A stretch of 64,000 nucleotides of DNA, from positions 64,001 to 128,000 of IMG/VR virus record IMGVR_UViG_3300026549_000038; one strand, given 5' to 3'. Under the pieces are notes generated by a model that did no database searches, had not been told where the DNA came from, and saw only the letters and a program-made list of their open reading frames with translations. Shown here piece by piece: positions 7,920 through 20,589 of this stretch. The first letter of the stretch is position 1; each line of letters opens with the position of its first letter. The DNA is from a virus. Taxonomy: Duplodnaviria > Caudoviricetes. The position numbers were made by a program, and so were the translations under genes.

Positions 7920-7940
7920 ATATTATTGAAAATTTAATTG

Positions 7941-8026
7941 TACCGGAGACGGGAATCGAACCCGCACGACCTTTTCGGATCATTGGATTTTAAGTCCAAA
8001 GCGTCTACCTATTCCGCCACCCCGGC
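7941..8026 (-). tRNA. tRNA-Leu(TAA)
   Basis: Full cloverleaf, long variable arm, CT-TAA-AA loop, no intron. Confidence 0.95.
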
Positions 8027-8179
8027 TCGTCTATCGAGTGCTTTGAGAACTTTCCTATCGTATTTTCTCTTGTTCTTAACAACTCTTGTAGGTCTTGTAC
8101 TAATAAGCTTCCCGAAGGTTTCAATTTCGAGCTTTCTATCTACAGCCTTTATACTTTTTATGTATGTTCTCTTTCTCAA
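8009..8179 (-). CDS. 56-aa basic protein, ArfA-like candidate; stop codon lies inside tRNA-Leu
   Basis: TTG start overlapping upstream TGA; MRKRTYIKSIKAVDRKLEIETFGKLISTRPTRVVKNKRKYDRKVLKALDRRAGVAE. Confidence 0.6.
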   Translation of the reverse strand: MRKRTYIKSIKAVDRKLEIETFGKLISTRPTRVVKNKRKYDRKVLKALDRRAGVAE

Positions 8180-8562
8180 TTTTCGTTGTTTGTAAATGGA
8201 GCCAATAAAGTAATTACATCGTTTAAATTATAAACGTTTATGTTTAACGATTGGTGCTGCTTATTGTCTGTGTTCCCACCAGGGACTGCCAAATACATAA
8301 AATAGCACTGTAAGAACTCATGTTTATTGCCTCCATCTGAATCAGAAACGTATCCAGGTTCTGCTCCCCACGAGAATACAACAGCATGTTGGTCTGCAGG
8401 ATTGATTACATCTTGTCTCTCTCCATTAATGATTATAGTTTGTGTTGTCCCTGGAGTCCACCAGATCTTATACCACCCCTCTAATCCTTTTTCTGGGTCT
8501 TTATGATACATGAATTTACGATCTTTCAACCAGACTTCTATTTGCTTTTTTAATTCTTCCAT
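8176..8562 (-). CDS. Hypothetical protein
   Basis: 128-aa co-oriented ORF. Confidence 0.7.
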   Translation of the reverse strand: MEELKKQIEVWLKDRKFMYHKDPEKGLEGWYKIWWTPGTTQTIIINGERQDVINPADQHAVVFSWGAEPGYVSDSDGGNKHEFLQCYFMYLAVPGGNTDNKQHQSLNINVYNLNDVITLLAPFTNNEN

Positions 8563-8566
8563 CTAT

Positions 8567-9334
8567 CTAAATAGTTAATTTAAAAGTAAACGGATCATAG
8601 GTTGGATGATAATCTTCATCAAGAAGAGAGACATTTCTCATCTTAGTCTCGTGCCCGGAATCAGTCACTATTGTTTCAACTTCGTGAAGTCCCGAGTGGA
8701 CATGCCCGGAAAGTACCCAATCTATCTGTCTTGGCCTAATTGTATCCGCAAGTTCCTGACATCCAAAATTTTTTCCGTAATTCCAGTTACCGTTCTGAGT
8801 AACCAATCCTTGAGATCCTATTCTAGGAGGAGTATGAGTCAACAACACTTCGCATTTCTTCGGAATACGACTAAACTTCTCTACCAGGGTTGAACTGTTT
8901 CCGTAGAATGCCCACCTGCTCAAATCAGGTATCCAAGGAGTCCCATAGAACTTATGCCCTTCTATCACGACGCTACTGTCGCAAAGAAGTTTTACAATAT
9001 GTTGTTTGTATTGATCTAGGTAGAGTTTCTTCAAGATATCAACCCCGGATCTTCGCGAACCTAGTTCTGCGCTTTCAAAAAAGAAATCATGGTTTCCGGG
9101 TATCACCAGAACATGTTTATATCCGTAATCCTTAAGCTTGTCTGTCCACGGAGTAAATTTTTGAAGCAACCAGGACACGGTTTCTAAACCACTCAGCTGA
9201 TATTTTAGCGGTACTATATCCCCACAGATACAGAGAACATCTCCAGCAGGGAAATCTGATACGCTTGGTAGATACCCATGAAGATCACTGATCGCCGTAA
9301 CATTGAGTTCTTTTTTGACTATTTTTTGATCCAT
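8567..9334 (-). CDS. Calcineurin-like metallophosphoesterase
   Basis: SDLH, CGD, GNHD, THTPP, GHVH. Confidence 0.92.
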   Translation of the reverse strand: MDQKIVKKELNVTAISDLHGYLPSVSDFPAGDVLCICGDIVPLKYQLSGLETVSWLLQKFTPWTDKLKDYGYKHVLVIPGNHDFFFESAELGSRRSGVDILKKLYLDQYKQHIVKLLCDSSVVIEGHKFYGTPWIPDLSRWAFYGNSSTLVEKFSRIPKKCEVLLTHTPPRIGSQGLVTQNGNWNYGKNFGCQELADTIRPRQIDWVLSGHVHSGLHEVETIVTDSGHETKMRNVSLLDEDYHPTYDPFTFKLTI

Positions 9335-9385
9335 ATATAAATATATAAATAGTGCGATATTAATTTAGTTTTAATACCATTTCGT

Positions 9386-9967
9386 TTATTTCATTAGTTC
9401 GTATTGTTCTTCCCAGAGTTTTTTGAGAGAGCTCCCACGGAAAAAATCGAGGATCAGTTCGTCTTCTGCAAATTCATCGAGCAAAAAATCAATCATTTTT
9501 ATTGTGGCCGGGTGGATCTTCGGATGGTCGTTTTGAATCTTTTTCCTAAACCATTCCTTCTCGTGCTTCAGGATAGAATCTTTTCCTACTCCGTTGTTGT
9601 ATGCTCTTCCTGCACCGAGATAATCTGCAATCAACTCCAGCAAGTCTTTCCAAGGCATCTTTATAGGGGTTCCACCCTGGTCGAGATTGTCCACCCAATA
9701 CTCATAGTGATGCCTATTTCTTCCTTTGTGATGCTGCCAGGCCAAAGAATATCCTTTGTCTGCCTTGCACTTAACTATAGGAGAAGTCTTTCCATCCCAG
9801 TATCTCACGCTCTCCCAGAACTCCACTGGAGAGAACTTGCTCAAGTCGTGCGTGAGCCCTCTCCAGGTAATTCCAAGCTTGCGGCAGTAGACTAGAACCC
9901 AGTACTTGTGTACCAGGACAGTCTTAAGGTGACCGAAGAATTTACGAATAGTTATTCTTGTATCCAT
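9386..9967 (-). CDS. HD-like protein (DUF5662 family)
   Basis: HK..V, HDLSKFSPVEF, AWQHHKGRNRHHYEYW. Confidence 0.8.
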   Translation of the reverse strand: MDTRITIRKFFGHLKTVLVHKYWVLVYCRKLGITWRGLTHDLSKFSPVEFWESVRYWDGKTSPIVKCKADKGYSLAWQHHKGRNRHHYEYWVDNLDQGGTPIKMPWKDLLELIADYLGAGRAYNNGVGKDSILKHEKEWFRKKIQNDHPKIHPATIKMIDFLLDEFAEDELILDFFRGSSLKKLWEEQYELMK

Positions 9968-9989
9968 AAGTGCTATTTATGTTGATTAA

Positions 9990-10859
9990 TTATGCTGCAA
10001 CCGGTACGTACTTTTCGATTTTATGCCAGAGGCTTGTGTTCAGCGCGAGGTCTTTCTCGATTGAGCTTACTCGACGTGCCTTTCTAAAACGACCCTTTTT
10101 CGTCTGATACATATAACCACCGTTTATCATCTTTTCCTGGCAGACGTTAAACAGACCCCAGAGATTATCGGCGTTGTCCTCCTTTCTGAGAGGAGCAAGG
10201 ATACTATCTACAGTAGATGTATCAATCTGGACCTTTTCTGTAGATGGGATATTGTTTCTAAGTCTGAAAACTTCTTCAGCCATATCTTTACGTACTGAAT
10301 CTGTGGTTTTAGTTACCATCATCACGTTCATCTTCTGCGCCATGGACGGAACATGTTTGATAACATCGGCAACAATACCTCTCAGCGTCTCGAAGTCATA
10401 GTTGATGTGTCTCACGCTGAAATTGGCCATTTCGTTTGTAGCAATCACAAGTCCGTTGCTGCATACCAGTCGGAACAAGCCTACCATAAACTTAAACGAA
10501 TGGGCTCCGTCGTGAGAATTAGTCAGGATAATCCTCGGGTAGCAGTCCACTACCTGTCCGCCCTGTCCATCTTCCTTCATAATACGAACTCCAGGATTCT
10601 GGAAAGCAATCATATGAAAACTATATATTCCTTTTGATTTCTTTGCTCTTTTCCTGTAAGCTGCCTGAACCGGTCTCCAACCGAGTTTCTCCAGGTCTTC
10701 TACAACTGTCATCGTGTTTGCAGTGACGTACTGCTGTGACAGTGCTGGGTTCGTAGGAGATTCACAAAATGCCACTGGGCAAAGTTCTTTGAGGTCTTCA
10801 CGAGAGAGAAAATTTGTGGAAAGATTGTCGTTTCCGAAGCAAAGCATAGTGTCTTTCAT
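9990..10859 (-). CDS. DUF932/DUF945-family protein
   Basis: ILTNSHDG, GLFRLVCSNGL, LW..FN..QE, N..LW. Confidence 0.85.
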   Translation of the reverse strand: MKDTMLCFGNDNLSTNFLSREDLKELCPVAFCESPTNPALSQQYVTANTMTVVEDLEKLGWRPVQAAYRKRAKKSKGIYSFHMIAFQNPGVRIMKEDGQGGQVVDCYPRIILTNSHDGAHSFKFMVGLFRLVCSNGLVIATNEMANFSVRHINYDFETLRGIVADVIKHVPSMAQKMNVMMVTKTTDSVRKDMAEEVFRLRNNIPSTEKVQIDTSTVDSILAPLRKEDNADNLWGLFNVCQEKMINGGYMYQTKKGRFRKARRVSSIEKDLALNTSLWHKIEKYVPVAA

Positions 10860-10953
10860 ATCTGTGGTGTTTTACTATTATTAAACTTACAGATATATAT
10901 AACAAAAAAGGAAAAATATTTAGTGGATTTTTAAATTGAATTGTTAACTTTTG

Positions 10954-11073
10954 TGACCCAGGCGGGGTTCGAACCCACGACCTTTGGTCTTAGTTCAAGG
11001 CTTTACGAGGATTTCTCCGCGGACACTCCCCAACCTTTACTTGCCAACGCTCTACCGACTGAGCTACTGGATC
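10954..11073 (-). ncRNA. tRNA-like RNA with 47-nt structured insertion in the anticodon loop
   Basis: Canonical acceptor GATCCAG/CTGGGTC, D and T arms; 54-nt segment in place of the 7-nt loop. Confidence 0.75.
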
Positions 11074-11078
11074 TCTCA

Positions 11079-11753
11079 TCAGTTAAAATAATAAATCACA
11101 CGAACCTTATCAAAATCAATCCAGCTATTTCCGCTGAACTGAGATGCTAAATTATACAATTCAGACGTTTCCTGTTCGAGTGTAACAATATCTGAAAGGT
11201 CCTCATCAAGAAGATAATCTATGTCGATTTCATCATCACATCCTTTCTTTTCTTTCATTGCCTTGTCTGTTTTCTTCAACGCAATCTTTTCAAGATGAGC
11301 AATTCTTCTTTTAATATCTTCCAACTGTTCATCGCGCACATGCTTTTTAACACTGTTTTTCCAATTATTGATTTTTTCTTTAGAAATCTTCCACATTTCA
11401 TCAATATATATGTAAGAGTATCTGCGTGAATAATCATAGTCACTTGGATATATGCCTTTGTTTTTCTCTTTCTCTGCCATCTCTTCAAGAAGTGTCTTCA
11501 GTTCTTCGCTCACATCCGATGGTAATCCATAAGGCGCGTCTTCCCTGCGCCACACAAGTTCATCGCGCCATGCAAGTCCAGTCCACAACTCGTATTTCTC
11601 TATCATCTTTTTTCCGTCGACATTCACAACCTTTTCAAAATCCCACTCGGTAGGTTCGTTTTCGACAAAAGCATAATCAGTATAATATTTAGCAAGATGC
11701 CACTTTTTTTCTTTGTCTTGAACCTCAACGAAAAAATAAATACTTGTACTCAT
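11079..11753 (-). CDS. Hypothetical phage protein
   Basis: 224-aa ORF with GLPSDVS and RVIYYF motifs. Confidence 0.75.
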   Translation of the reverse strand: MSTSIYFFVEVQDKEKKWHLAKYYTDYAFVENEPTEWDFEKVVNVDGKKMIEKYELWTGLAWRDELVWRREDAPYGLPSDVSEELKTLLEEMAEKEKNKGIYPSDYDYSRRYSYIYIDEMWKISKEKINNWKNSVKKHVRDEQLEDIKRRIAHLEKIALKKTDKAMKEKKGCDDEIDIDYLLDEDLSDIVTLEQETSELYNLASQFSGNSWIDFDKVRVIYYFN

Positions 11754-11778
11754 GTTATTTGATTATTGTTGATTGCTG

Positions 11779-11862
11779 CGGAGAGCGGAGGTCTCGAACC
11801 CCAACCGATAAACGATCCAACAGTTTAGCAAACTGCGCCTGCTCCTAGCAGATTCACTCTCC
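11779..11862 (-). tRNA. tRNA-Ser(GCT)
   Basis: GGAGAG acceptor, GCT anticodon, long variable arm, G73. Confidence 0.85.
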
Positions 11863-12077
11863 GTGGGCCCATCCATCTTTCATGTCGTCACAGCAAACAC
11901 TCCAGGACTTCGGAGTTTTTAAACCAATGTGGCCTCTTTATGATACTTCCACCCTTATGTTGGATTCGGGATTTACCTACATATACCCACCACAAATTTT
12001 AACCATGTACCATCCACACGCATTGTTCCAATCTACATGCTTCTTCTCACATGGGTGATAAGATGGCTAGCAAGACG

Positions 12078-12150
12078 TAGGACCGCCCGGATTCGAACCG
12101 GAGTTTTCAGAATGAAAATCTGAGAGCCTAACCAATTAGCTGACGGTCCC
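12078..12150 (-). tRNA. tRNA-Glu(TTC)
   Basis: Cloverleaf, TCAGA-TT-TTC-AT-TCTGA. Confidence 0.9.
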
Positions 12151-12376
12151 AAAATGCAACTTTTAAAATAACCCCAGAGTTGCCAACTGTGCCGACCTAC
12201 GATTCGGAGGAAAAGTATGCTTATATGAGAAGCCTTTCCCATCTTCGTTCCCTTGTACTTCGGGCTTTCTGAACAGAACTCACTATCGTTGAGCAACGCG
12301 CCACTTTACCTATAAGTGGTAACTACGAACTTGATAACGGATTAGTCGCCTCCGTCAGATGTTTTGCTAATCTGAG

Positions 12377-12449
12377 AGCCAGTAGAGGGACTCGAACCCC
12401 CGACCAATTCATTACAAATGAATCGCTCTACCAACTGAGCTATACTGGC
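12377..12449 (-). tRNA. tRNA-Thr(TGT)
   Basis: Canonical cloverleaf. Confidence 0.95.
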
Positions 12450-12574
12450 AAAAATGCCCTAAATTGAAATCTTGCAAGTAATTGTTAATTTTAGCAAACA
12501 TCAAAACGTGTCGAACCTTAATAACTGGCCGTACTTTCAATTAACAATCATTTCAACCGAGGGCAGTTGTCCTA

Positions 12575-12900
12575 TGTTGAAATCTCCGGAGTCGGTACAT
12601 GCGCTTATGCAACTAAAACCAGGCTTCCACTGGTACAAACCGTATTTCAACTTAGACTCTCTCCATCTAGTCTCTACACACTGTCTATTATTCTATATCT
12701 GCGGTCCCCTGTTCTCAGGACTATATTCATTATTGAAGTATAGCCTTGCAGTATAGATTTTAACATTGGCTCGGTGTTAGCATAACAGCCGGATTCGAAC
12801 CGGCTCCCCACTGTTAGTTGGGGGTGTCATATATCACTATGTTTTAGCCTTCACCGAATTTAGAGAGTTCTACTTCAGGAATTTCTTCCTGAGCGCTCAG
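12575..12900 (-). ncRNA. Orphan group I intron-like RNA (tRNA-Leu/IC3-like core), apparently truncated
   Basis: CTCTCTAAATTCGGTGAA, CACCGAGCCAA, GTAGAGACTAGATGGAGAG core signatures and P8-like GTTGAAAT/ATTTCAAC. Confidence 0.65.
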
Positions 12901-12902
12901 GT

Positions 12903-12918
12903 TTTTATTTCAATGAAC
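12903..12918 (-). promoter_or_regulatory. boxA-like leader element GTTCATTGAAATAAAA (copy 1)
   Basis: Identical 16-mer at 14778-14793; both sit between an AT-rich promoter region and an RNA block. Confidence 0.55.
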
Positions 12919-12948
12919 GTATAAATATATTTAACTCTCACAACTTAT

Positions 12949-13503
12949 TTAATTCTCTGGGTAGCCGCTAAGCTGGTATGCTTCGCGCAGGACCGTACGG
13001 ATATTATCCAGGCACTGTCCGAGGAGGTTCTTCCCCTGCCATTCGCTTGGCCAGTCAACTCTCGGGTCGGTGTAATGAATGCCTACACCCCAAATCTTAT
13101 CACTCGGACTTCCTTCGACGAAGTGTTTTCCTTCGAATTCTGGGTCGAGTATGAGATCTTTAAGTGCTGGATTTTGTATAAACTTTGCCATCAGGGCAAT
13201 CTCCATATATTCCTGCCTATGCTCAACCCAGTCGTCTTCTTTGAATCCCTTGACTTTTCTTCCGAGATACTTTGCATCTCTCGGGGTCTCGGCTGCACAG
13301 ATAAGACTCGCAGTCAGCTCATCGCCAAAATGAACTGCTTTAAGATACATAAACAACTGTTCAGAACTCTTAAAGACCTTGCCGTGGTATTCGACTCTAC
13401 AATTGTAAAAGTTTGACAGTCCGCTACCATAGAAAGCAACGTGTTTGTCATATATAATCAACCCGTGTCGAAGGCCAGATTCTCTTGTCTTTTCTGGTGT
13501 CAT
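12949..13503 (-). CDS. NADAR (YbiA/DUF1768) family protein
   Basis: LSNFY, SEQ.FM..KA..F.D, AK.LGR, KF.QN, EGSP.D.IWG.G, G.NLLG. Confidence 0.93.
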   Translation of the reverse strand: MTPEKTRESGLRHGLIIYDKHVAFYGSGLSNFYNCRVEYHGKVFKSSEQLFMYLKAVHFGDELTASLICAAETPRDAKYLGRKVKGFKEDDWVEHRQEYMEIALMAKFIQNPALKDLILDPEFEGKHFVEGSPSDKIWGVGIHYTDPRVDWPSEWQGKNLLGQCLDNIRTVLREAYQLSGYPEN

Positions 13504-13676
13504 AGCAAATCCATAGCTTTACATACCGCAGCATAGACCTTGCGGCAATAGGTCAAGTCTTCTTCTGAAACGTTTGCACTATCTGGAGAATAGTACAAGT
13601 GATTGTCAATGATGTTTCTGCATTCCTGTAATTTGTTGCGAACCTTCTCCAGGGCCAAAGTTGTCTGCCTTGTCAT
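13500..13676 (-). CDS. Small hypothetical protein (58 aa)
   Basis: MTRQTTLALEKVRNKLQECRNIID..., ATGA overlap with NADAR start. Confidence 0.55.
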   Translation of the reverse strand: MTRQTTLALEKVRNKLQECRNIIDNHLYYSPDSANVSEEDLTYCRKVYAAVCKAMDLL

Positions 13677-14104
13677 ATTATCTTACGATGTTAATAACTA
13701 CTAAAGCTACTATTGAAACGGCTATAAACGCCGCGTAAATGTAATCTGTCTTTGTCATAGTTGTGTGTGCTAAATCTAATTACATCTATATATAACAAAC
13801 TTTGGAAAATCTTTAGTGATTTGGGCTGAAATTTTGCAAATTTTTAAGCGTATTTTTCGCACTTTTTACATAAGAAAACACCCTTTCTGATATCTTATAT
13901 ATCATCGAGGGAGTTCTCTTAAAATTTCGCGGTTTTTGTGCGAAATTCATAAATCATCCTACCCGGTCGGCTCGTTCCATCCATGACCTCCACATCTACC
14001 CTATAGAGACAGTTGCATCTATCTTAAGGGGTCCTCTCAAGTCATTTCCAACCTACTTGATGCAAATTTTCGGTTAGCTTTCTTGAACCTCGGATGATTT
14101 ATTG

Positions 14105-14182
14105 CTTCCGATAAGGGAATCGAACCCTTACACTCCATTCAACGACTTACGATTCGTTCCAATGAGGAATCCAATTCGGAAG
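14105..14182 (-). ncRNA. tRNA-like element without a definable anticodon arm
   Basis: CTTCCGA/TCGGAAG closing stem, GATTC/GAATC arm, AAGGG-TTCGATT-CCCTT T arm. Confidence 0.55.
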
Positions 14183-14477
14183 TTTCACTTTTACGGAATA
14201 GTGAGAACCGTATAGGTGGGCAGACTCATATCGTACGCTACCCGTTATACGCAGGACTGATTTATTCACCTGAGGAAGACAGCAGGTATGAACTGCCTCC
14301 TGTTTTTTGTCAAAGTAACTTAGCGGAAGATGCGTCCATCTTGCCTCCGGCAGGCTCTTTGACTTATATTCACCCCTTTGTGGAAAACCATCGCATTGAA
14401 GAGTCGAACTCCGCTGCTTGCTGAATCGAACACGCGCCCAAGGGGACCCTACTATCCGTTCGGGATGTATCATTTTG

Positions 14478-14552
14478 TACTCCGGGTAGGATTCGAACCT
14501 ACACTGTCCAGATCCTAAGTCTGGTGCCTCCTGCCAGTTGGGCTACCGGAGC
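14478..14552 (-). tRNA. tRNA-Leu(TAG), short variable arm
   Basis: Cloverleaf, CT-TAG-GA loop. Confidence 0.92.
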
Positions 14553-14777
14553 AAACGGTTACCACCAAAATCAACTCTCGTCATAGCCCATACGGATTAC
14601 CTGCTATGCCCTCCGCCTCACTTCCCAGAGTCTTATTGGCCTTTATCCCTCTGGTTATAGAGACTTCACCAAGTGTACAGTAGCTTTTAATTGTGCACGA
14701 TCCCGGCCTGTACGCGAACGGCGAGTATTTGCAAGGTGTCTTCACACCTGAGTGCCCTTAATCTTGGAGTAACCTTA

Positions 14778-14793
14778 TTTTATTTCAATGAAC
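14778..14793 (-). promoter_or_regulatory. boxA-like leader element (copy 2)
   Basis: Identical to 12903-12918; just downstream of promoter motif 14799-14826. Confidence 0.55.
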
Positions 14794-14846
14794 AATTAAA
14801 TATAATAAATAACTTAAAATATTTAGTGTTTTCATTAAAAATATCG

Positions 14847-14919
14847 GGTGTTCTACTGGAATCGAACCAGTGTAGCTGGATCCACAATCCAGAACCTAAA
14901 CCTCTCGGCCAAGAACACC
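14847..14919 (-). tRNA. tRNA-His(GTG)
   Basis: Cloverleaf with G-1:C73. Confidence 0.92.
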
Positions 14920-14928
14920 ATAAATTAG

Positions 14929-14999
14929 CAGAACCTGTAGGAGTCAAACCCACATCTTTCGGGTTGGAGCCGAAAATGTTATCATTACACCAAGGTCCC
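14929..14999 (-). tRNA. tRNA-Trp(CCA)
   Basis: TTCGG-CT-CCA-AC-CCGAA, G73. Confidence 0.85.
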
Positions 15000-15001
15000 G
15001 G

Positions 15002-15089
15002 AGGAAGGAGTGGGATTCGAACCCACGGAAGTTTTTAGGCTCCAACGGTTTTCAAGACCGGTCCAATAATCCATCTCTGGCACCCTTCC
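15002..15089 (-). tRNA. tRNA-Ser(TGA)
   Basis: Cloverleaf with long variable arm. Confidence 0.92.
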
Positions 15090-15096
15090 TTATTTG

Positions 15097-15168
15097 AGAA
15101 GACACTCGGATTCGAACCAAGATAGTGACGCTTTGCAGGCGTACCCATAACCATTCTGGCATGTCTTC
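15097..15168 (-). tRNA. tRNA-Cys(GCA)
   Basis: GCA anticodon, U73. Confidence 0.88.
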
Positions 15169-15169
15169 G

Positions 15170-15243
15170 TGCTCCCCCTAAGATTCGAACTTAGACTTGA
15201 CTGGTTTTGAATCAGTTACCTCTGCCTGTTGGGTTAGAGGAGC
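15170..15243 (-). tRNA. tRNA-Leu(CAA), short variable arm
   Basis: TT-CAA-AA loop, Leu-type D loop. Confidence 0.88.
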
Positions 15244-15247
15244 TTTG

Positions 15248-15322
15248 TGGAAGTGGAGAGATTTGAACTCCCGACTTCAACTTTGTAAGAGTTGCACTCT
15301 GAACCAACTGAGTTACATTTCC
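15248..15322 (-). tRNA. tRNA-Val(TAC)
   Basis: Canonical cloverleaf. Confidence 0.92.
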
Positions 15323-15327
15323 TTATG

Positions 15328-15399
15328 CAGGCTATGAGGGAGTCGAACCCTCACCACAAGATAGACAGTCTAGTATCCTAACCGTTGGACCAATAGCCT
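15328..15399 (-). tRNA. tRNA-Asp(GTC)
   Basis: Cloverleaf, G73. Confidence 0.9.
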
Positions 15400-15404
15400 A
15401 TATT

Positions 15405-15482
15405 TGGTGGATCCAGTGAGATTCGAACTCACAACGACCTGAATGCAAATCAGGTGCTCTAGCCAATTGGAGCTATGGACCC
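15405..15482 (-). tRNA. tRNA-Ala(TGC), CCA encoded
   Basis: G3:U70 pair, TGC anticodon, ACCA end. Confidence 0.95.
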
Positions 15483-15486
15483 GGTG

Positions 15487-15560
15487 TAGACTTGCTTGGA
15501 CTCGAACCAAGGACCTCTTCGGTATCAGCGAAGCTCTCTAACCAACTGAGATACAAGTCT
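15487..15560 (-). tRNA. tRNA-Ile(GAT)
   Basis: Canonical cloverleaf. Confidence 0.93.
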
Positions 15561-15569
15561 ATACGTTTG

Positions 15570-15641
15570 AGCGGAATGCCGGAACTGCCCCGACCTCCCC
15601 AGCATGGCAAGCTGGTATAATAACTTCTATACGAATTCCGC
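15570..15641 (-). tRNA. tRNA-Gly(GCC), atypical T loop
   Basis: GCGGAAT acceptor, U73, T loop GGCAGTT. Confidence 0.8.
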
Positions 15642-15646
15642 GTGTG

Positions 15647-15708
15647 TTGAGAAGGCTGGACTTGAACCAGTATAAGCTTCCTGCGCTGACCATTTGCGTC
15701 ACTTCTCA
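15647..15708 (-). ncRNA. 62-nt anticodon-armless tRNA-like RNA
   Basis: TGAGAAG/CTTCTCA acceptor, D arm, T arm; only 11 nt between D and T arms. Confidence 0.7.
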
Positions 15709-15716
15709 GTTTCTTG

Positions 15717-15788
15717 TTGGGATACAAGGAGTCGAACCTCAATCTTCACGTTCAGAGCGTGATATGTTGACCATTGCACCATATCCCA
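15717..15788 (-). tRNA. tRNA-Gln(CTG)
   Basis: U1:A72, CT-CTG-AA loop. Confidence 0.92.
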
Positions 15789-15940
15789 ATGTTAACGCTT
15801 TACCCATTATCATACGTTAGGGCTATTTCAGGCTCTACGATCTCCATCCTCCTTAACTTTGAATCAGTACTTAGATATCATTGTAGCTGATTCATTTCAA
15901 GTGACTTTACGAGATTCGCTCTTCGTAGCTAAAGCGTTTG

Positions 15941-16015
15941 AGCAAGATATGGGAATCGAACCCACTAAGCCTTCTGGTTGGAAGCCAGACGTGCAACCAT
16001 TTACACCTATCTTGC
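15941..16015 (-). tRNA. tRNA-Gly(TCC)
   Basis: Cloverleaf, U73. Confidence 0.92.
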
Positions 16016-16020
16016 ATTTG

Positions 16021-16092
16021 TACCCTGACTGCGACTCGAACGTAGATTAACAGTTTAGAAAACTGTGGTTCTATCCTTTGAACTATCAGGGC
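16021..16092 (-). tRNA. tRNA-Arg(TCT)
   Basis: Cloverleaf, GGATA D loop. Confidence 0.9.
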
Positions 16093-16096
16093 TTTG

Positions 16097-16168
16097 TACC
16101 CCAGAAAGGAATCAAACCTCTACTTCTTGGTTCGTAGCCAAACGTTCTATTCGTTAAACTACTGGGGC
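16097..16168 (-). tRNA. tRNA-Arg(ACG)
   Basis: Cloverleaf, CT-ACG-AA loop. Confidence 0.85.
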
Positions 16169-16175
16169 ATTTTTG

Positions 16176-16248
16176 TGCTCCCGCCCGAACTCGAATCGGA
16201 ACCTCCCGGGTAAGAGTCGGGATGACTAACCAATTATCCTACAGGAGC
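16176..16248 (-). tRNA. tRNA-Lys(CTT)
   Basis: Cloverleaf, CT-CTT-AC loop. Confidence 0.85.
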
Positions 16249-16251
16249 TTG

Positions 16252-16327
16252 TGCCTCCGGTGGGTCCCGCCCCCACGATCACACATCTTAAAAGGATGGT
16301 GCTTTAATCCAACTCAGCTACAGAGGC
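16252..16327 (-). tRNA. tRNA-Lys(TTT), atypical T loop
   Basis: CT-TTT-AA loop; T loop GGCGGGA. Confidence 0.8.
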
Positions 16328-16341
16328 TTATATTTACTCTG

Positions 16342-16414
16342 TGCGGGAGATTGGTACCGCCCCAATTCCTCTTGATTTTCAGTCAAGCGCAATGACTTCA
16401 TCTGCCACTCCCGC
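16342..16414 (-). tRNA. tRNA-Phe(GAA), atypical T loop
   Basis: CTTGA-CT-GAA-AA-TCAAG; T loop GGCGGTA. Confidence 0.82.
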
Positions 16415-16524
16415 GTAATACCCTGGTTCGGAACCTCGGTAACTACTCAGGAGTCACCGAGGGCCTACTTAAACCTAAATCGTTTTATGCGTCTAAATCG
16501 TCTCATTTTTAGTCATTTATCCTG

Positions 16525-16618
16525 TGCCGAGAGCTAGATTCGAACTAACTTACTGCGAGACCAATACGGATATTTGTTAAAGCAGAACGGTTTTACAGAC
16601 CGTCTCCGTTATCTCGGC
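16525..16618 (-). tRNA. tRNA-Tyr(GTA) lacking D arm, enlarged variable region
   Basis: GCCGAGA/TCTCGGC acceptor, ACGGT-CT-GTA-AA-ACCGT, T arm; 8-nt linker instead of D arm. Confidence 0.7.
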
Positions 16619-16628
16619 TTATGTCTTG

Positions 16629-16702
16629 TCGAGAATACAGGATTCGAACCTGTGATCAGCTGCTTCCGCAGCAGCCCGCAAAAACCACTAGCGTAATTCT
16701 CT
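16629..16702 (-). tRNA. tRNA-Pro(CGG)-like, G33
   Basis: GCTGC-TG-CGG-AA-GCAGC, G72/A73, canonical T arm. Confidence 0.6.
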
Positions 16703-16793
16703 CATACCTGCTTGTACTTCACAGGCGTGTGTATTATAAAACTTTCAAATATAGATTTTCGCGACAATCCAATCTACTCATTTTATCAATACC

Positions 16794-16870
16794 TGGTCGA
16801 GTAGCCACGATTCGAACGTGGGGTCTCTACATCCCAAATGTAGCGCCTTAACCAACTCGGCTACTACTCG
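16794..16870 (-). tRNA. tRNA-Pro(TGG), CCA encoded
   Basis: C1:G72, canonical cloverleaf. Confidence 0.95.
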
Positions 16871-16879
16871 ATAGTCTTG

Positions 16880-16952
16880 CGGGTCTGGCAGGGCACGATC
16901 CTACAACCTACTGGTTAACAGCCAGTTGCTCTACCAATTGAGCTACAGACCC
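16880..16952 (-). tRNA. tRNA-Asn(GTT)
   Basis: Cloverleaf, G73. Confidence 0.92.
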
Positions 16953-17249
16953 ATCTCTTTACCGCAATGTAAGTGATTTAATATGTAATATGTGATTGTT
17001 TTGATCTGACCTGGTGGATTAAACCACCTACATTTGCGATTAATTAACCTCTGCTATAGGGCTTCTGAGCCAACGCGAGATTATCAAATCTATTATCGTC
17101 AGATCCAATAAATGATAGCCAACTATAGCCGCGATGATCTTTCACCGAGCGTTTACAGATAGATATGTTGACTATTCTCTTCATTTTAGATAGATATTAT
17201 GTTAAAATCAAATTCTAATAAATATAATAAAACAATACAAAAAATTTAG

Positions 17250-17296
17250 TAAATTTTATAAATTTCTAAATAAATTTTATAAATTTCTAAATAAAT
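17250..17296. repeat. 21-bp AT-rich tandem duplication TAAATTTTATAAATTTCTAAA
   Basis: Two copies adjacent to the promoter at 17221-17249. Confidence 0.7.
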
Positions 17297-17307
17297 TCTA
17301 ATAATAT

Positions 17308-17391
17308 TGGTAGCGGGAGGAGGGCTCGAACCTCCGAGGCTTTCGCTGCGGCTTATGGGACCGCCCAGATACCGACTTCTGACATCCCGCT
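17308..17391 (-). tRNA. tRNA-Met(CAT), atypical (C33, extended variable arm), CCA encoded
   Basis: AGCGGGA/TCCCGCT acceptor, GCGGT-CC-CAT-AA-GCCGC. Confidence 0.75.
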
Positions 17392-17393
17392 AG

Positions 17394-17492
17394 TGGTGGG
17401 AGAAGGATTCGAACCCCCAATAGGATTTAACCGAGAATTTACCCACAACCTACTCAATGAAGATTGCCTGTCTGCCATTCCAGCACCCCACC
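17394..17492 (-). ncRNA. Leu-type tRNA body with 11-nt anticodon loop
   Basis: GGTGGGG/TCCCACC acceptor, Leu-type D loop, CAATC-TTCATTGAGTA-GGTTG, long variable arm. Confidence 0.6.
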
Positions 17493-17499
17493 TTAATTG

Positions 17500-17571
17500 T
17501 AGCCCGGGTAAGAATCGAACTTACGCTTCAAAATTTGCAATTTTGCGCTCTGCCAACTGAGCTACCGGGCC
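17500..17571 (-). tRNA. Second tRNA with GCA (Cys) anticodon, A73
   Basis: CAAAA-TT-GCA-AA-TTTTG; canonical D and T arms; lacks the Cys U73 determinant. Confidence 0.75.
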
Positions 17572-17614
17572 TGGATTGATCATTCATATCCATCCTGATC
17601 AACCGAGTACATTC

Positions 17615-17796
17615 GCAAAGATACCTTCAGAGATTTTAGAATAAAGCTGTATACGTATTAGTATAAGACTCCTGCGATTGACCTCTTCGCCACAGCACCA
17701 TGTTTGAATATATTTATATTTAGAGGTGCTGATGGGATTCGAACCCACGAATTAGGAGTTTTTTTTTTGAAGTGTAAATCCTCTCTGGTACTTCGC
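17615..17796 (-). ncRNA. Circularly permuted tRNA mimic on an extended stem (YrlA/Y RNA-like)
   Basis: T arm plus CAGCACC precede GGTGCTG plus D arm; GGAGT/ACTCC and outer GCGAAGTACC/GGTATCTTTGC pairings. Confidence 0.7.
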
Positions 17797-17973
17797 TTGA
17801 CCTTAAATCTAAAGCTCTTGACCCAATTCTAAATCTGATTATCTCGGATTTTTAAAACTAAATCTAAAGCTGAAGCTTTGGTCAATATGTTTTGTCAATA
17901 ATTTCAAAAGAACATAAGCCTTTCACTTATTCGATTACATCCGCTTAAGCGCTGTAACTTCTGCGCTCTGCAA

Positions 17974-18819
17974 CTAACCCCTGTAGAGATAATCTACAAA
18001 CTGGTTTACATCCAGATTCGGTTGTTCGACCTCCGTGTCATTTACAACCTTGAGAGCCTCGATCACTGCTGCAAGCAAGTCAGAGCGTCTGCGAAGCAAC
18101 TCTGCTCTCTCCCTCTGAGTCCACTCACCAGTAAACATCTGCTGAGTATAGTCACCGGTCTCGACTGTCTTGCTTTTGACTGTGGTCTTTGCAGTGTAGT
18201 TTGACGGAAGATGTGACGGATCCAGGTTAGGGTCCTTAAGGATAACCTCCTCCTTCTCTGTCGTACGAGTGACACCCTTGACAAGCTCGGTCTCGAATAC
18301 TCTTCTACCAGCATACTCTGAGTCGGTTGTCTCTTTCCAAACCTCGCTGTCACTACGAACAGGAATGTTTGCAAAGACGGCCTCCAGGTCCTTATTTGTA
18401 AGGATGTTCTTGAGTCTCATAAGCTCCAGAGCGGTAAGGTTTCCGAATGAGTGTCCGTTAACTACAAGCTCGGTGGTTTTTGCTCCCTTGGAGTTCGTTG
18501 ACTCAACACTGAACACGTCTGTAAGCCAGTTCTTGAACTGCTTATTGAACCAGTCAAATTTCTCGTCTACTGTGGTAGCAACTACCTGAGTACCCATCTT
18601 TGAAGGGTCCTCGAAATATCCGTCTCTCGGAACAAATGTTTTCTTGTAACCGCGAAACATCCCCTGCTTATTCTTGAAGAAGCTTGCGTAATCGGCAAAT
18701 AACCTTGCAATACCTGCGCTTGAATGCTCAACCTTGGCGAGCATAGTATTCATCTTAATGTCTCTCATAAAGCTTAAAATATCATTAGTTATGTTAATAT
18801 ATATTAAATGATGATGCAA
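17974..18819 (-). CDS. Conserved helical/beta-hairpin protein (recalled as DUF7873-like; probable start 18768)
   Basis: Pattern G..KTF.P.D, L..L...L.......IP....E.W, T.K, G.....F.G, L...V..A...N, YL.G recalled from a widespread family. Confidence 0.75.
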   Translation of the reverse strand: MHHHLIYINITNDILSFMRDIKMNTMLAKVEHSSAGIARLFADYASFFKNKQGMFRGYKKTFVPRDGYFEDPSKMGTQVVATTVDEKFDWFNKQFKNWLTDVFSVESTNSKGAKTTELVVNGHSFGNLTALELMRLKNILTNKDLEAVFANIPVRSDSEVWKETTDSEYAGRRVFETELVKGVTRTTEKEEVILKDPNLDPSHLPSNYTAKTTVKSKTVETGDYTQQMFTGEWTQRERAELLRRRSDLLAAVIEALKVVNDTEVEQPNLDVNQFVDYLYRG

Positions 18820-19335: not shown

Positions 19336-20589
19336 TTATTTATTTGTTGATATTATATGATACAAATCATACCTAGAATCAATCAAAAGTTTATTCACTG
19401 CATCATAATCTATATGATCTTTCAGTGTAGATGTCTTTTCAAGCATCATGAGCTCTTCTCTTTCCTTATTCACAATAGACATGATTTCATCATACTCATA
19501 CTTGTGATTACGGATATCTAGCAAGAAATCCCTGTCTTTATCTCGAACCACGTTAAATCCCTCACCCCGGAGAAGCTCATTGGACATTCTCAAGAGCCGG
19601 ACACAATGCATCATATTCTTTGAGTCATAATTCTTGTTCAGATTACTCTCATACCTGACCGGATTCCTATGTGCCTCCCACTCCTTGTATTCCTTGTAGT
19701 CTTTGCAGTGAGAAGTATACCCATCTCGGTTGAAGTAAAGATAACAAATCGGTGAATCTCCCTCTTTGACAGCGGAAAGTCTTATGTCATTGGATTTGGT
19801 ATAGTCATCAGGATTCACGATTCCTTCATAACCGTAGAACTCTTTTTCCCAAATACGATTTCGTATCCGGACTGCCTCTTGAGGATCTTTGATAAGCTTG
19901 TTATATGGGTAAGGGATACTTGGATAGGGGTTACATTTTGCCCAATCTGGCAGTGCTTCAAAGTGGAAAAATGCAGCCCAATCATAGTAAACTCCATAGA
20001 CATCTTTCATATTCGGTATGTTCACTAGACCGCAGTACCTTTGGTTTAGGTGGTTGTCTTGCAGGAATTTCTTTATGGGTTGAGATCCCTGATTCTTGAA
20101 GGTATAGCAAAAATCCAGCGGATCTTTTCTCTCACTGACAGGATTAACTATCTTCTTATTCAGCCCCCTGGCTTTATATATTTGACTAATAGCGTACCCA
20201 GAAAAGCTCTTCACACATTCTTTCGAGAGAAAGAGGTCCCTATGAGAGATTATATTCTGAATCACCGGATGTACTTCTCCAACTATACAGTCCTTCGGAA
20301 CGAACAGGCTTTCCAGAACAGAAGGATTTGACTTAAGCAGCAGTTCTATCCATCTCCCGAACTCCCAATAGACAGTGTCGTGCCTGCTGTCTGAGACTTG
20401 TTCTGTGTATGTAGAACGAAGTCCGATAATCTGCTGAACCGGAGCCACGAACACACCACCTATATCTTTATCTGATGTCTCTGTGTTGAGATGGTACATG
20501 TGAGATCCGCGGACATATTCAAAAATAATCAGTTTGTTTTTTCTAAGTCCTTCTATGGTCATAACTATTAATTTATATATTATATTCAA
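19336..20589 (-). CDS. Pol-beta superfamily nucleotidyltransferase (PF10127/RlaP-like)
   Basis: RGSHMYHLNTETSDKDIGGVF, NP..LE.L, GYA..Q, YDSKNMMHCVRL. Confidence 0.88.
   Translation of the reverse strand: MNIIYKLIVMTIEGLRKNKLIIFEYVRGSHMYHLNTETSDKDIGGVFVAPVQQIIGLRSTYTEQVSDSRHDTVYWEFGRWIELLLKSNPSVLESLFVPKDCIVGEVHPVIQNIISHRDLFLSKECVKSFSGYAISQIYKARGLNKKIVNPVSERKDPLDFCYTFKNQGSQPIKKFLQDNHLNQRYCGLVNIPNMKDVYGVYYDWAAFFHFEALPDWAKCNPYPSIPYPYNKLIKDPQEAVRIRNRIWEKEFYGYEGIVNPDDYTKSNDIRLSAVKEGDSPICYLYFNRDGYTSHCKDYKEYKEWEAHRNPVRYESNLNKNYDSKNMMHCVRLLRMSNELLRGEGFNVVRDKDRDFLLDIRNHKYEYDEIMSIVNKEREELMMLEKTSTLKDHIDYDAVNKLLIDSRYDLYHIISTNK

What the first reader, a model, noticed from the sequence alone, without database searches (positions are those of the whole stretch)
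17615..17796. Circularly permuted tRNA mimic with YrlA (bacterial Y RNA) architecture
Seen (minus, in order): ACTCC (17759-17755), T arm GTGGG-TTCGAAT-CCCAT, acceptor 3' strand CAGCACC-T, a 24-nt linker, acceptor 5' strand GGTGCTG (17699-17693), D arm GCG/CGC, then GGAGT pairing back with ACTCC. The flanks pair as a bulged outer helix (GCGAAG-TACC with GGTA-T-CTTTGC; CAGAGA with TCTCTG). Known: YrlA RNAs have this permuted tRNA module on a Ro60-binding stem, and two-piece tmRNAs are similarly permuted. The body is Cys-like (U73). No Ro60 gene was seen in the window. Inference: a phage Y-like RNA, possibly processed to a two-piece chargeable RNA, whose partner may be the adjacent protein.
Basis: partly seen in the sequence, partly recalled or inferred. 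Interest (0 to 1): 0.85.

Follow-up and report, generated by a model that had tools for sequence, protein, structure and literature searches.

The report
Phage tRNA-mimic Y-like RNA
The flagged stretch is a real, conserved phage RNA built like a transfer RNA turned inside out on a bulged stem, the design of bacterial Y RNAs; it always follows one unstudied protein gene (DUF7873), and this phage has no Ro60 gene, the usual partner of such RNAs.

Summary
Observation confirmed. On the minus strand, 17796-17615, a tRNA 3' half, a 24-nt linker and a tRNA 5' half form a complete cloverleaf body without an anticodon loop, closed by a bulged outer helix. It is the only such unit in the 160-kb phage record.

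It is not a relic. A covariance model finds it at the same place, 100-250 nt after a DUF7873 gene, in at least 59 of 62 viral loci and 8 of 8 metagenome loci. All four tRNA stems and the outer helix covary.

It has YrlA (Y RNA) architecture but fails Rfam's YrlA threshold and lacks a conserved Ro60-binding motif. No TROVE or Ro60-like gene is in this record. In sister clades a divergent Ro60-like gene (DUF2828 + vWA) lies beside DUF7873 or 5-7 kb away. Ro60-like loci without DUF7873 also carry such RNAs.

The unit is the core of a roughly 315-nt structured RNA (17885-17574). That RNA starts about 90 nt after the DUF7873 stop codon in this window (10-30 nt in most relatives).

Most likely it is a Y-RNA-type tRNA-mimic scaffold in an RNA-protein complex tied to tRNA repair or conflict. 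Cleavage at the acceptor end is plausible; charging is untested.

This scan has already found the DUF7873-RNA pair in many other genomes. I found no publication describing it. New variant of a known kind.

The parts
17974..18819 (-). DUF7873 protein gene. The ORF is 281 aa from a TTG; homologs are about 264 aa, so the true start is probably about 17 codons further in. It sits immediately upstream of the RNA.
   Evidence: Pfam PF25283, 101 bits. More than 500 homologs at 64-85% identity. AF2 model pLDDT 83 with no fold match.
17818..17885 (-). 5' domain of the RNA. Helix TTGACC (17885-17880) / GGTCAA (17823-17818) encloses phased NNTNAG hexamers and a conserved ATCCGAGATA tip.
   Evidence: 98.5% of cells paired, against 21-56% when slid, with two covarying pairs. 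Layout conserved across clades. RNAalifold found no convincing inner structure.
17781..17796 (-). Outer helix, 5' strand: GCGAAG (17796-17791), TACC (17790-17787), AGAGA(G) (17786-17781).
   Evidence: MFE fold. RNAalifold predicts it independently in two clades, with compensatory changes.
17724..17759 (-). tRNA-like 3' half: anticodon-stem 3' strand ACTCC, variable TAATTC, T arm GTGGG-TTCGAAT-CCCAT, acceptor 3' strand CAGCACC, discriminator T73.
   Evidence: R1 alignment. Covariation.
17700..17723 (-). 24-nt AT-rich linker closing the acceptor stem. It starts with CTA (the C-N-A that is conserved in relatives). In relatives it is 14-130 nt long, and the longer ones carry an extra hairpin.
17668..17699 (-). 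tRNA-like 5' half: acceptor 5' strand GGTGCTG, U8 G9, D arm GCGA-AGAGGTCAA-TCGC, A26, anticodon-stem 5' strand GGAGT.
17650..17665 (-). Small hairpin on the 3' side of the junction: TATAC-TAATAC-GTATA.
   Evidence: MFE fold. Equivalent hairpins with different sequences are visible in L141, L143 and L147 (read by eye).
17615..17633 (-). Outer helix, 3' strand: TCTCT (17633-17629), bulge GAA (17628-17626), GGTA (17625-17622), bulge T (17621), CTTTGC (17620-17615). YTGAA is conserved.
17574..17604 (-). Terminal hairpin GGTTGATCA-GGATGGATATGAA-TGATCAATC with the conserved GGAT(A/T)T loop. It abuts tRNA-Cys (17571-17499).
   Evidence: A hairpin with this loop motif is present in 22 of 32 distinct relatives. 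A T-run follows it only in distant clades.
19336..20589 (-). RlaP-family RNA-repair nucleotidyltransferase, two genes upstream. This is context only; it is not conserved next to the RNA.
   Evidence: Pfam PF10127 and phrog_388. 19 RlaP loci elsewhere have no such RNA.

Best explanation
SHOWN. The stretch encodes the core of a conserved, structured phage RNA spanning about 17885-17574 on the minus strand. Its centre is a circularly permuted tRNA body in the order T arm, closed 7-bp acceptor stem, D arm. The 'anticodon stem' of that body opens into a junction and a bulged outer helix, which is the architecture of YrlA-class bacterial and phage Y RNAs. In relatives the RNA begins within about 10-30 nt of the stop codon of a DUF7873 gene, so it is probably made as that gene's 3' extension, at the head of or inside the phage tRNA array. 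In sister clades a divergent Ro60-like protein (DUF2828 + vWA with a DxSGS site) is encoded next to the pair or a few kb away. This phage's 160-kb record has none.

INFERRED. The RNA works as a tRNA-mimicking scaffold of a ribonucleoprotein. The bulged outer helix (conserved YUGAA bulge), the hexamer-repeat domain and the GGAUAU loop would be protein-docking sites, for DUF7873 and, where present, for the Ro60-like protein or the host's Ro60. The tRNA-like elbow and acceptor end would present a tRNA look-alike to tRNA-handling enzymes. By analogy with Ro60-Y RNA particles and with the rsr-yrlBA-rtcBA repair operon, the particle would serve quality control, repair or protection of the phage's own tRNA pool during infection. 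Two features make RNase P and 3'-end cleavage into a two-piece RNA plausible, as in M. smegmatis YrlA: the acceptor stem is always 7 bp, and it is followed by N73-C-N-A like the resident tRNAs. This cleavage is not shown.
For: Anatomy. Unique in the genome. Not a copy of a resident tRNA.

Conservation at a syntenic site: 52 of 62 loci by my scanner, at least 59 of 62 by model R1 at 37-100 bits, and 8 of 8 closer metagenome relatives at 64-90 bits.

Covariation: 20 of 21 pairs change on both sides, with 89.7% of cells paired against 38-48% when slid. RNAalifold predicts the outer helix independently in two clades, with compensatory changes. The 5' domain helix is supported.

YrlA likeness: sub-threshold but full-length Rfam YrlA matches on two relatives, 34 and 27.5 bits. 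The published YrlA layout, and the RNase P/CCA processing of the 7-bp-stem M. smegmatis YrlA, are in PMC4201824.

Ro60-like neighbour in relatives: Pfam DUF2828 + DUF7788, weak vWA_Ro60 and phrog_850. It is adjacent in 26 loci and nearby in clade B. Ro60/TROVE structures are the top hits of both fold searches. Permuted units lie right after Ro60-like genes that have no DUF7873.

Repair context: RlaP and RtcB. 'ROT/TROVE platform for RNA repair with a tRNA-like partner' is from PMC7824862. Phage Ro60 with Y-like RNAs and host PNPase is from PMC12135203.

Trailer pattern N73-C-N-A shared with the resident tRNAs.
Against: No expression, processing or binding data exist.

The window copy gets no Rfam YrlA hit even at E <= 10.

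The Ro60-binding CGAA/GNCGAANG motif is present only in this copy (AGCGAAG) and is not conserved in relatives.

This genome (81% complete) and one complete relative genome lack any Ro60-like gene, so a Ro60-type partner is not general.

The link to DUF7873 is partly an ascertainment effect, because most loci were fetched through DUF7873. Two DUF7873 loci lack the RNA.

The DUF7873 fold gives no hint of RNA binding.

The Ro60-like assignment rests on a low-confidence model, pLDDT 52.

An earlier check in this scan priced the 'DUF7873 binds the RNA and needs no Ro60' reading at only 22/100.
Confidence: 0.6

Rival explanations
1. Two-piece, chargeable tRNA-like RNA. RNase P and a 3' nuclease excise the linker, CCA is added, and the acceptor end is aminoacylated (Cys-like U73). 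The RNA then acts in translation or ribosome rescue like a minimal two-piece tmRNA, or as an aminoacyl carrier.
For: The 7-bp acceptor stem is invariant, G+1 is present in most copies, and the discriminator is followed by C-N-A as in the resident tRNAs. The linker tolerates inserts of 14-130 nt. Rfam tmRNA_permuted is the best Rfam hit on the window copy, 21.5 bits. M. smegmatis YrlA is cleaved and receives CCA.
Against: There is no G3:U70. No tag frame is conserved: the hexamer region reads differently in each clade, with stops. There are no pseudoknots. The hit is below the tmRNA threshold, and ARAGORN finds no tmRNA. There is no anticodon. The encoded end is mostly CUA, which would not function in the peptidyl-transferase centre unless repaired (established knowledge). 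The phage encodes no CCA-adding enzyme. Relatives already carry a normal tmRNA.
Confidence: 0.12
2. Protein-independent decoy. The anticodon-less tRNA look-alike soaks up host anti-phage enzymes that recognise the tRNA elbow or acceptor end (nucleases, nucleotidyltransferase or acetyltransferase toxins), so sparing the phage tRNA pool.
For: The RNA lies at the head of, or inside, large phage tRNA arrays, next to repair enzymes. The full set of tRNA tertiary-contact nucleotides is kept, yet there is no anticodon loop.
Against: A decoy would not need the conserved, covarying outer helix with its invariant bulge, the 5' domain or the GGAUAU hairpin. Nor would it need tight linkage to DUF7873 and Ro60-like genes.
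Confidence: 0.13
3. Cis-acting processing or stability element. A tRNA-shaped structure in the 3' end of the DUF7873 mRNA recruits RNase P or RNase Z to separate the mRNA from the downstream tRNA array, or protects the mRNA 3' end.
For: The RNA starts within 10-30 nt of the stop codon in most relatives (about 90 nt here) and runs into the first tRNA with no terminator in this clade.
Against: An ordinary tRNA would do this job. The permuted order, the covarying outer helix and the occurrence after Ro60-like genes without DUF7873 all argue for a trans-acting RNA. In distant clades the RNA has its own terminator.
Confidence: 0.1
4. Evolutionary relic: leftover halves of two tandem copies of a tRNA, with no function.
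For: Permuted tRNA genes are thought to arise from tandem duplicates (established idea from work on algal permuted tRNA genes). One relative, L043, carries a deleted copy.
Against: The unit is conserved at the same site in 67 of 70 loci whose flanking protein has diverged to as little as 25% identity. All stems, including the outer helix, carry compensatory changes. It resembles no resident tRNA.
Confidence: 0.01

Closest known systems
YrlA-class Y RNAs of bacteria and phages with Ro60/Rsr (Rfam RF02553; Chen et al. 2014, PMC4201824)
   Same: The 5' and 3' ends form a long bulged stem. The tRNA-like module has the order T arm, acceptor-like stem-loop, D arm, and keeps the tRNA tertiary-contact nucleotides. 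As in M. smegmatis YrlA, the acceptor stem is 7 bp. In relatives it is encoded beside a Ro60-like gene. It sits in an RNA-repair gene context (RtcB, RlaP).
   Different: It fails the Rfam threshold: no hit on the window copy, and 27-34 bits on relatives against a threshold of 69. No GNCGAAN0-1G motif is conserved on the 5' strand; instead a YUGAA bulge is conserved on the 3' strand. It is part of a larger RNA, about 315 nt here (17885-17574), with a hexamer-repeat 5' domain and a GGAUAU hairpin. It always follows DUF7873. The Ro60-like protein of relatives is not detected by Pfam TROVE and is absent from this phage.
Thermus phage phiLo Ro60 with Yrl1/Yrl2 (PMC12135203; PDB 9KOP, 9L5Y)
   Same: A phage-encoded Ro60-type protein with adjacent Y-like RNAs. 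These phiLo structures are the best structural matches of the relatives' 600-aa protein.
   Different: In the paper the phiLo Yrls are described by a stem-bulge-stem with a CGAA motif, not as tRNA mimics. The present phage has no such protein.
Two-piece (circularly permuted) tmRNA (Rfam RF04321)
   Same: The gene order is T arm, acceptor 3' strand, intervening segment, acceptor 5' strand. This region gives the best, but sub-threshold, Rfam hit on the window copy.
   Different: There is no G3:U70, no tag reading frame and no pseudoknots, and a full D arm is present. The hit is 21.5 bits against a threshold of 47.
Circularly permuted tRNA genes of red and green algae (Cyanidioschyzon type)
   Same: The 3' half lies upstream of the 5' half, and the acceptor ends are joined by a short intervening sequence.
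   Different: Those yield normal tRNAs after circularisation at a bulge-helix-bulge site. Here no anticodon loop can be reconstituted, and the ends form a conserved long helix instead.

Membership tests
YrlA (Rfam RF02553) | tRNA-like module in the order T arm, acceptor-like stem-loop, D arm, carried on a stem formed by the RNA's two ends | tested here: met
YrlA (Rfam RF02553) | Conserved tRNA tertiary-contact nucleotides (U8, A14, G18G19, T54-T55-C56, 15:48 Levitt pair) | tested here: met
   Read directly from the parsed sequences: U8, A14, G15/C48, GG in the D loop, TTCGAAT T loop.
YrlA (Rfam RF02553) | Score at or above the curated gathering threshold (69 bits) | tested here: not met
   No YrlA hit on the window copy at E <= 10. 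Relatives L074 and L072 score 34 and 27.5 bits, full length.
YrlA (Rfam RF02553) | Encoded next to a Ro60/TROVE gene | tested here: not met
   There is no TROVE, DUF2828, phrog_850 or homolog of the relatives' Ro60-like protein in the 160-kb record, which is 81% complete. Sister clades do have a divergent Ro60-like gene, adjacent or 5-7 kb away.
YrlA (Rfam RF02553) | GNCGAAN0-1G (CGAA) motif in the 5' strand of the Ro60-binding stem | tested here: inconclusive
   The window has AGCGAAG at 17797-17791, one mismatch from the motif. The motif is not conserved in relatives of any clade.
YrlA (Rfam RF02553) | Bound by Ro60/Rsr in vivo | not testable with these tools
   Needs immunoprecipitation or EMSA.
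Two-piece tmRNA (Rfam RF04321) | G3:U70 alanine identity pair | tested here: not met
   U3:A70 here; G:C, C:G or U:A in relatives.
Two-piece tmRNA (Rfam RF04321) | Tag reading frame, pseudoknots and a score at or above the gathering threshold (47 bits) | tested here: not met
   21.5 bits, covering only the T arm, acceptor and linker. ARAGORN finds no tmRNA. No frame is conserved in the flanks.
Permuted tRNA genes (algal type) | The halves rejoin into a complete tRNA with a 7-nt anticodon loop | tested here: not met
   ARAGORN accepts the body at any artificial join. But the natural flanks of the anticodon stem are an A-rich tract on one side and a hairpin plus single strand on the other, leading into a conserved helix; no anticodon loop is conserved.
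Ro60/TROVE (600-aa protein of relatives, not in this window) | TROVE HEAT-repeat ring plus a vWA domain with MIDAS | tested here: inconclusive
   Pfam TROVE finds nothing in genomes that carry the protein. Pfam gives DUF2828 + DUF7788 and weak vWA_Ro60. A DxSGS motif is invariant. Ro60 structures are the top hits of Foldseek (E 9e-4, ranks 1-8) and of VIA-align (Z 7.5), but the model has pLDDT 52.

The most novel reading that the evidence does not exclude
DUF7873 is the dedicated protein partner of this tRNA-mimic RNA. Together they form a ribonucleoprotein that works without Ro60, which is only an optional add-on in some clades. After RNase P cleavage and 3'-end processing at the acceptor stem, the RNA becomes a two-piece tRNA look-alike. 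The particle uses it to protect or repair the phage's own tRNA pool against host tRNA-targeting defences. This would be an undescribed class of phage RNA-protein counter-defence or repair module, embedded in tRNA arrays.
Probability: 0.2. Interest if true: 0.8.

Novelty: new variant of a known kind. Interest (0 to 1): 0.6.

Why it matters
Y RNAs are understood only as partners of Ro60. Here a Y-RNA-type tRNA mimic is conserved across a large group of gut and rumen phages of about 130-270 kb. It is welded to the 3' end of an unstudied gene (DUF7873), lies inside tRNA arrays, and occurs with a Ro60-like gene only in some clades. If DUF7873 binds the RNA, this defines a second kind of protein platform for tRNA-mimic RNAs. 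It would also make testable what the tRNA-like module of Y RNAs is for, a question left open since 2014. And it would point to how large phages guard their private tRNA pools against host tRNA-cutting defences. The RNA family is absent from Rfam, and I found no paper on DUF7873.

Tried and rejected
1. blastn of the region against 50,697 phage records gave no match.

2. An exact-pattern scan for the T arm plus acceptor string found only ordinary tRNA-Asp genes of unrelated viral contigs.

3. A single-sequence search for DUF7873 loci in viral contigs found none. An alignment-based search worked.

4. Nineteen RlaP loci carry no such RNA and no tRNA arrays, so RlaP is not the conserved neighbour.

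I used the one metagenome scan instead.

6. The DUF7873 structure was searched with Foldseek against PDB and BFVD and with VIA-align wide. Nothing was convincing: best Z 6.5, helical bundles. The profile against PDB sequences found nothing. The ESM Atlas returned only DUF7873 clusters.

7. The AF2 model of the relatives' Ro60-like protein came out at low confidence, pLDDT 52. The profile search listed only close homologs.

8. A duplexfold z-score test of the outer helix was noisy, median z -1.7. I replaced it with RNAalifold on two clades.

9. RNAalifold on the 5' hexamer domain gave no convincing inner structure.

10. A second tRNA-like module, which earlier scan notes report in other genomes, was looked for with the filters off. 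The window has none.

11. The sigma-70 promoter and terminator scan gave nothing above shuffles.

12. The Burroughs and Aravind 2016 paper could not be read; it is not held.

13. Reading the hexamer repeats as a tmRNA-like tag (Ala-Leu-Ala-stop) was rejected, because frames and stops are not conserved between clades.

Full report
CONTEXT. The window is bases 64001-128000 of a 160,192-bp IMG/VR phage record that is 81% complete. The minus strand carries an array of 25 or more tRNA genes. The flagged stretch lies at the upstream end of that array, between a DUF7873 gene (17974-18819, Pfam PF25283) and tRNA-Cys (17571-17499). An RlaP-family RNA-repair nucleotidyltransferase lies two genes further up. 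An RtcB ligase is about 22 kb away in the genome.

OBSERVATION. In order on the minus strand: ACTCC, a 6-nt variable region, a canonical T arm, the acceptor 3' strand CAGCACC, T73, a 24-nt linker, the acceptor 5' strand GGTGCTG, U8-G9, a 4-bp D arm with GG in its loop, A26 and GGAGT. The flanks form a helix with bulges on the 3' strand. The MFE fold recovers both the helix and the tRNA-like stems (z = -3.4).
- Rejoining the halves in silico gives an ARAGORN tRNA call for all 38 joins tried.
- A purpose-built scanner (7-bp acceptor hairpin, then ARAGORN on the rejoined halves) gives one hit in the whole genome, and it is this unit.
- The unit resembles none of the resident tRNAs.

IS IT A RELIC? 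No.
- An alignment of DUF7873 homologs fetched 62 viral loci at 25-71% protein identity. The scanner found a permuted tRNA body 100-250 nt after the gene in 52 of them.
- Covariance model R1, built from 22 distinct copies, raised this to at least 59 of 62 loci, at 37-100 bits. tRNA-tRNA junctions, the known false positive for such models (PMC4201824), stay at or below 56 bits.
- Eight closer relatives from metagenomes (57-85% identity) all have the unit.
- Of the three exceptions, one is a copy with its 3' half deleted, and two have ORFs in its place.
- Acceptor stems differ completely between clades. On a plain MAFFT alignment, 20 of 21 pairs show changes on both sides, and 89.7% of cells pair against 38-48% when partners are slid. 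The acceptor, T and anticodon stems were part of the detection criteria, so that count is partly built in.
- The outer helix was not used for detection. RNAalifold predicts it independently in clade A and in the window's own clade, with compensatory changes and a conserved YUGAA bulge on the 3' strand.

EXTENT OF THE RNA. The unit is the core of a longer conserved RNA.
- Upstream, a helix UUGACN/NGUCAA (window 17885-17880 with 17823-17818) covaries. It encloses phased NNUNAG hexamers and an invariant AUCC(G/U)AGAUA tip.
- In most relatives this helix starts 10-30 nt after the DUF7873 stop codon, so the RNA is probably the 3' extension of that transcript.
- Downstream, a hairpin with a conserved GGAU(A/U)U loop (window 17604-17574) is present in 22 of 32 distinct relatives. 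In this clade it abuts the first tRNA. In distant clades it is followed by a T-run.
- Unlike copies that earlier scan notes report in other genomes, the window has only one tRNA-like module.

WHAT IS IT LIKE? The order T arm, acceptor stem-loop, D arm on a terminal stem is the published design of YrlA Y RNAs. M. smegmatis YrlA, the one with a 7-bp acceptor stem, is cleaved by RNase P and receives CCA.
- Rfam gives no YrlA hit on the window copy even at E <= 10. The best hit there is permuted tmRNA at 21.5 bits against a threshold of 47.
- Two distant relatives give full-length YrlA matches of 34 and 27.5 bits, below the threshold of 69.
- The Ro60-binding CGAA motif occurs in the window copy (AGCGAAG) but is not conserved in relatives.
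- tmRNA is excluded: no G3:U70, no conserved tag frame, no pseudoknots.

PARTNERS. No TROVE gene is found in this record or in four complete relative genomes.
- In 26 clade-A loci the gene immediately upstream of DUF7873 is a 600-aa protein with DUF2828 + DUF7788, weak vWA_Ro60 similarity, a phrog_850 'RNA-binding protein' match and an invariant DxSGS site.
- In clade B this gene lies 5-7 kb downstream on the same strand.
- Its AF2 model is poor, pLDDT 52. Even so, Ro60/TROVE structures fill Foldseek ranks 1-8 (best E 9e-4) and rank 1 of VIA-align (phage phiLo Ro60, Z 7.5). I read it as a divergent Ro60-like protein, with moderate confidence.
- Loci fetched through this protein that lack DUF7873 still carry permuted tRNA-like units right after it. 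Some of these have a 4-nt loop on the acceptor stem.
- The window's genome, its close relatives' loci (+/-6 kb) and one complete relative genome have no such gene.
- DUF7873 itself folds confidently, pLDDT 83, but matches nothing known.

MECHANISM. Shown: a conserved, covarying, YrlA-like structured RNA fused to the 3' side of DUF7873 at or inside phage tRNA arrays, with a Ro60-like gene in some clades. Inferred: it is the RNA scaffold of a ribonucleoprotein that presents a tRNA look-alike, by analogy with three published systems:
- Ro60-Y RNA particles;
- the 'ROT/TROVE platform for RNA repair with a tRNA-like partner' (PMC7824862);
- phage phiLo Ro60-Yrl-PNPase complexes (PMC12135203).

The invariant 7-bp acceptor stem, and the N73-C-N-A trailer shared with 22 of 26 resident tRNAs, make cleavage into two pieces plausible. 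Charging has no support. The rivals (chargeable two-piece RNA, free decoy, cis processing signal, relic) are weighed in their own sections.

NOVELTY. Phage Y-like RNAs beside Ro60 have been known since 2014. What is not described in the papers I could search is the following:
- this Rfam-negative family;
- its obligate position after DUF7873;
- its extra domains;
- its occurrence without any Ro60-type gene.

Earlier notes of this same scan report the DUF7873-RNA pair in at least 156 other genomes, and a later check priced the Ro60-independent partnership at 22/100. My data agree with those notes.

Noticed in passing
window 10954-11073 (-), 16252-16327 (-), 17394-17492 (-): Rfam tRNA hits that ARAGORN does not call. 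One is a 120-nt match (50.6 bits, probably with an insert or intron). One is a 76-nt match (42.7 bits). One is a 99-nt match right at the threshold (29.1 bits), directly downstream of tRNA-Cys.
   Followed up: no
window 7940-17571 (-), tRNA array: 22 of 26 resident tRNAs have C after the discriminator, mostly followed by A(A). Only three encode CCA. The phage record has no class II CCA-adding enzyme gene (PF01743).
   Followed up: partly
window 17818-17885 (-): Phased NNTNAG hexamers (AGCTTT type; AAAGCTTT is self-complementary) lie inside a covarying UUGACN/NGUCAA helix with an invariant ATCC(G/T)AGATA tip. This 5' domain of the RNA is conserved across clades. What binds it is unknown.
   Followed up: partly
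window 17574-17604 (-): A hairpin whose loop carries a conserved GGAT(A/T)T motif (GAAGGATATTGAA in distant clades). It is present in 22 of 32 distinct relatives. It acts as an apparent terminator (T-run) only in the distant clades.
   Followed up: partly
L117 9813-9906 and 10386-10471; L118 9917-10001; L119 2651-2746; L114 4656-4753: Viral contigs have a Ro60-like gene but no DUF7873 and still carry permuted tRNA-like units just downstream of that gene. In L117 and L118 at least two lie in tandem. Some have a 4-nt GTAA loop on the acceptor stem. Each of the L114, L117 and L118 units is preceded by an AACAGCAWWTTTAAA-like motif.
   Followed up: partly
L026 1-140 and 1368-1472; L031 1278-1379; L081 2215-2510: Relatives carry the 3' part of a tmRNA, RAGATH-34 RNAs above the Rfam threshold, and a group I intron, all within a few kb of the DUF7873-RNA pair.
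   Followed up: no
L043 about 4283-4480: A natural deletion variant. The 3' half of the tRNA-like unit and part of the 5' domain are missing, while the linker hairpin and the 5' half remain.
   Followed up: partly
window 17972-17974 (-): The DUF7873 ORF of this phage ends in TAG, while all 24 relatives I checked end in TAA. I did not examine whether this bears on stop-codon usage.
   Followed up: no
genome C1:58828-59940 (-), outside the window: RtcB RNA ligase gene (169 bits), matched in two pieces within one 403-aa open frame. Together with RlaP it gives the phage an RNA-repair set.
   Followed up: no
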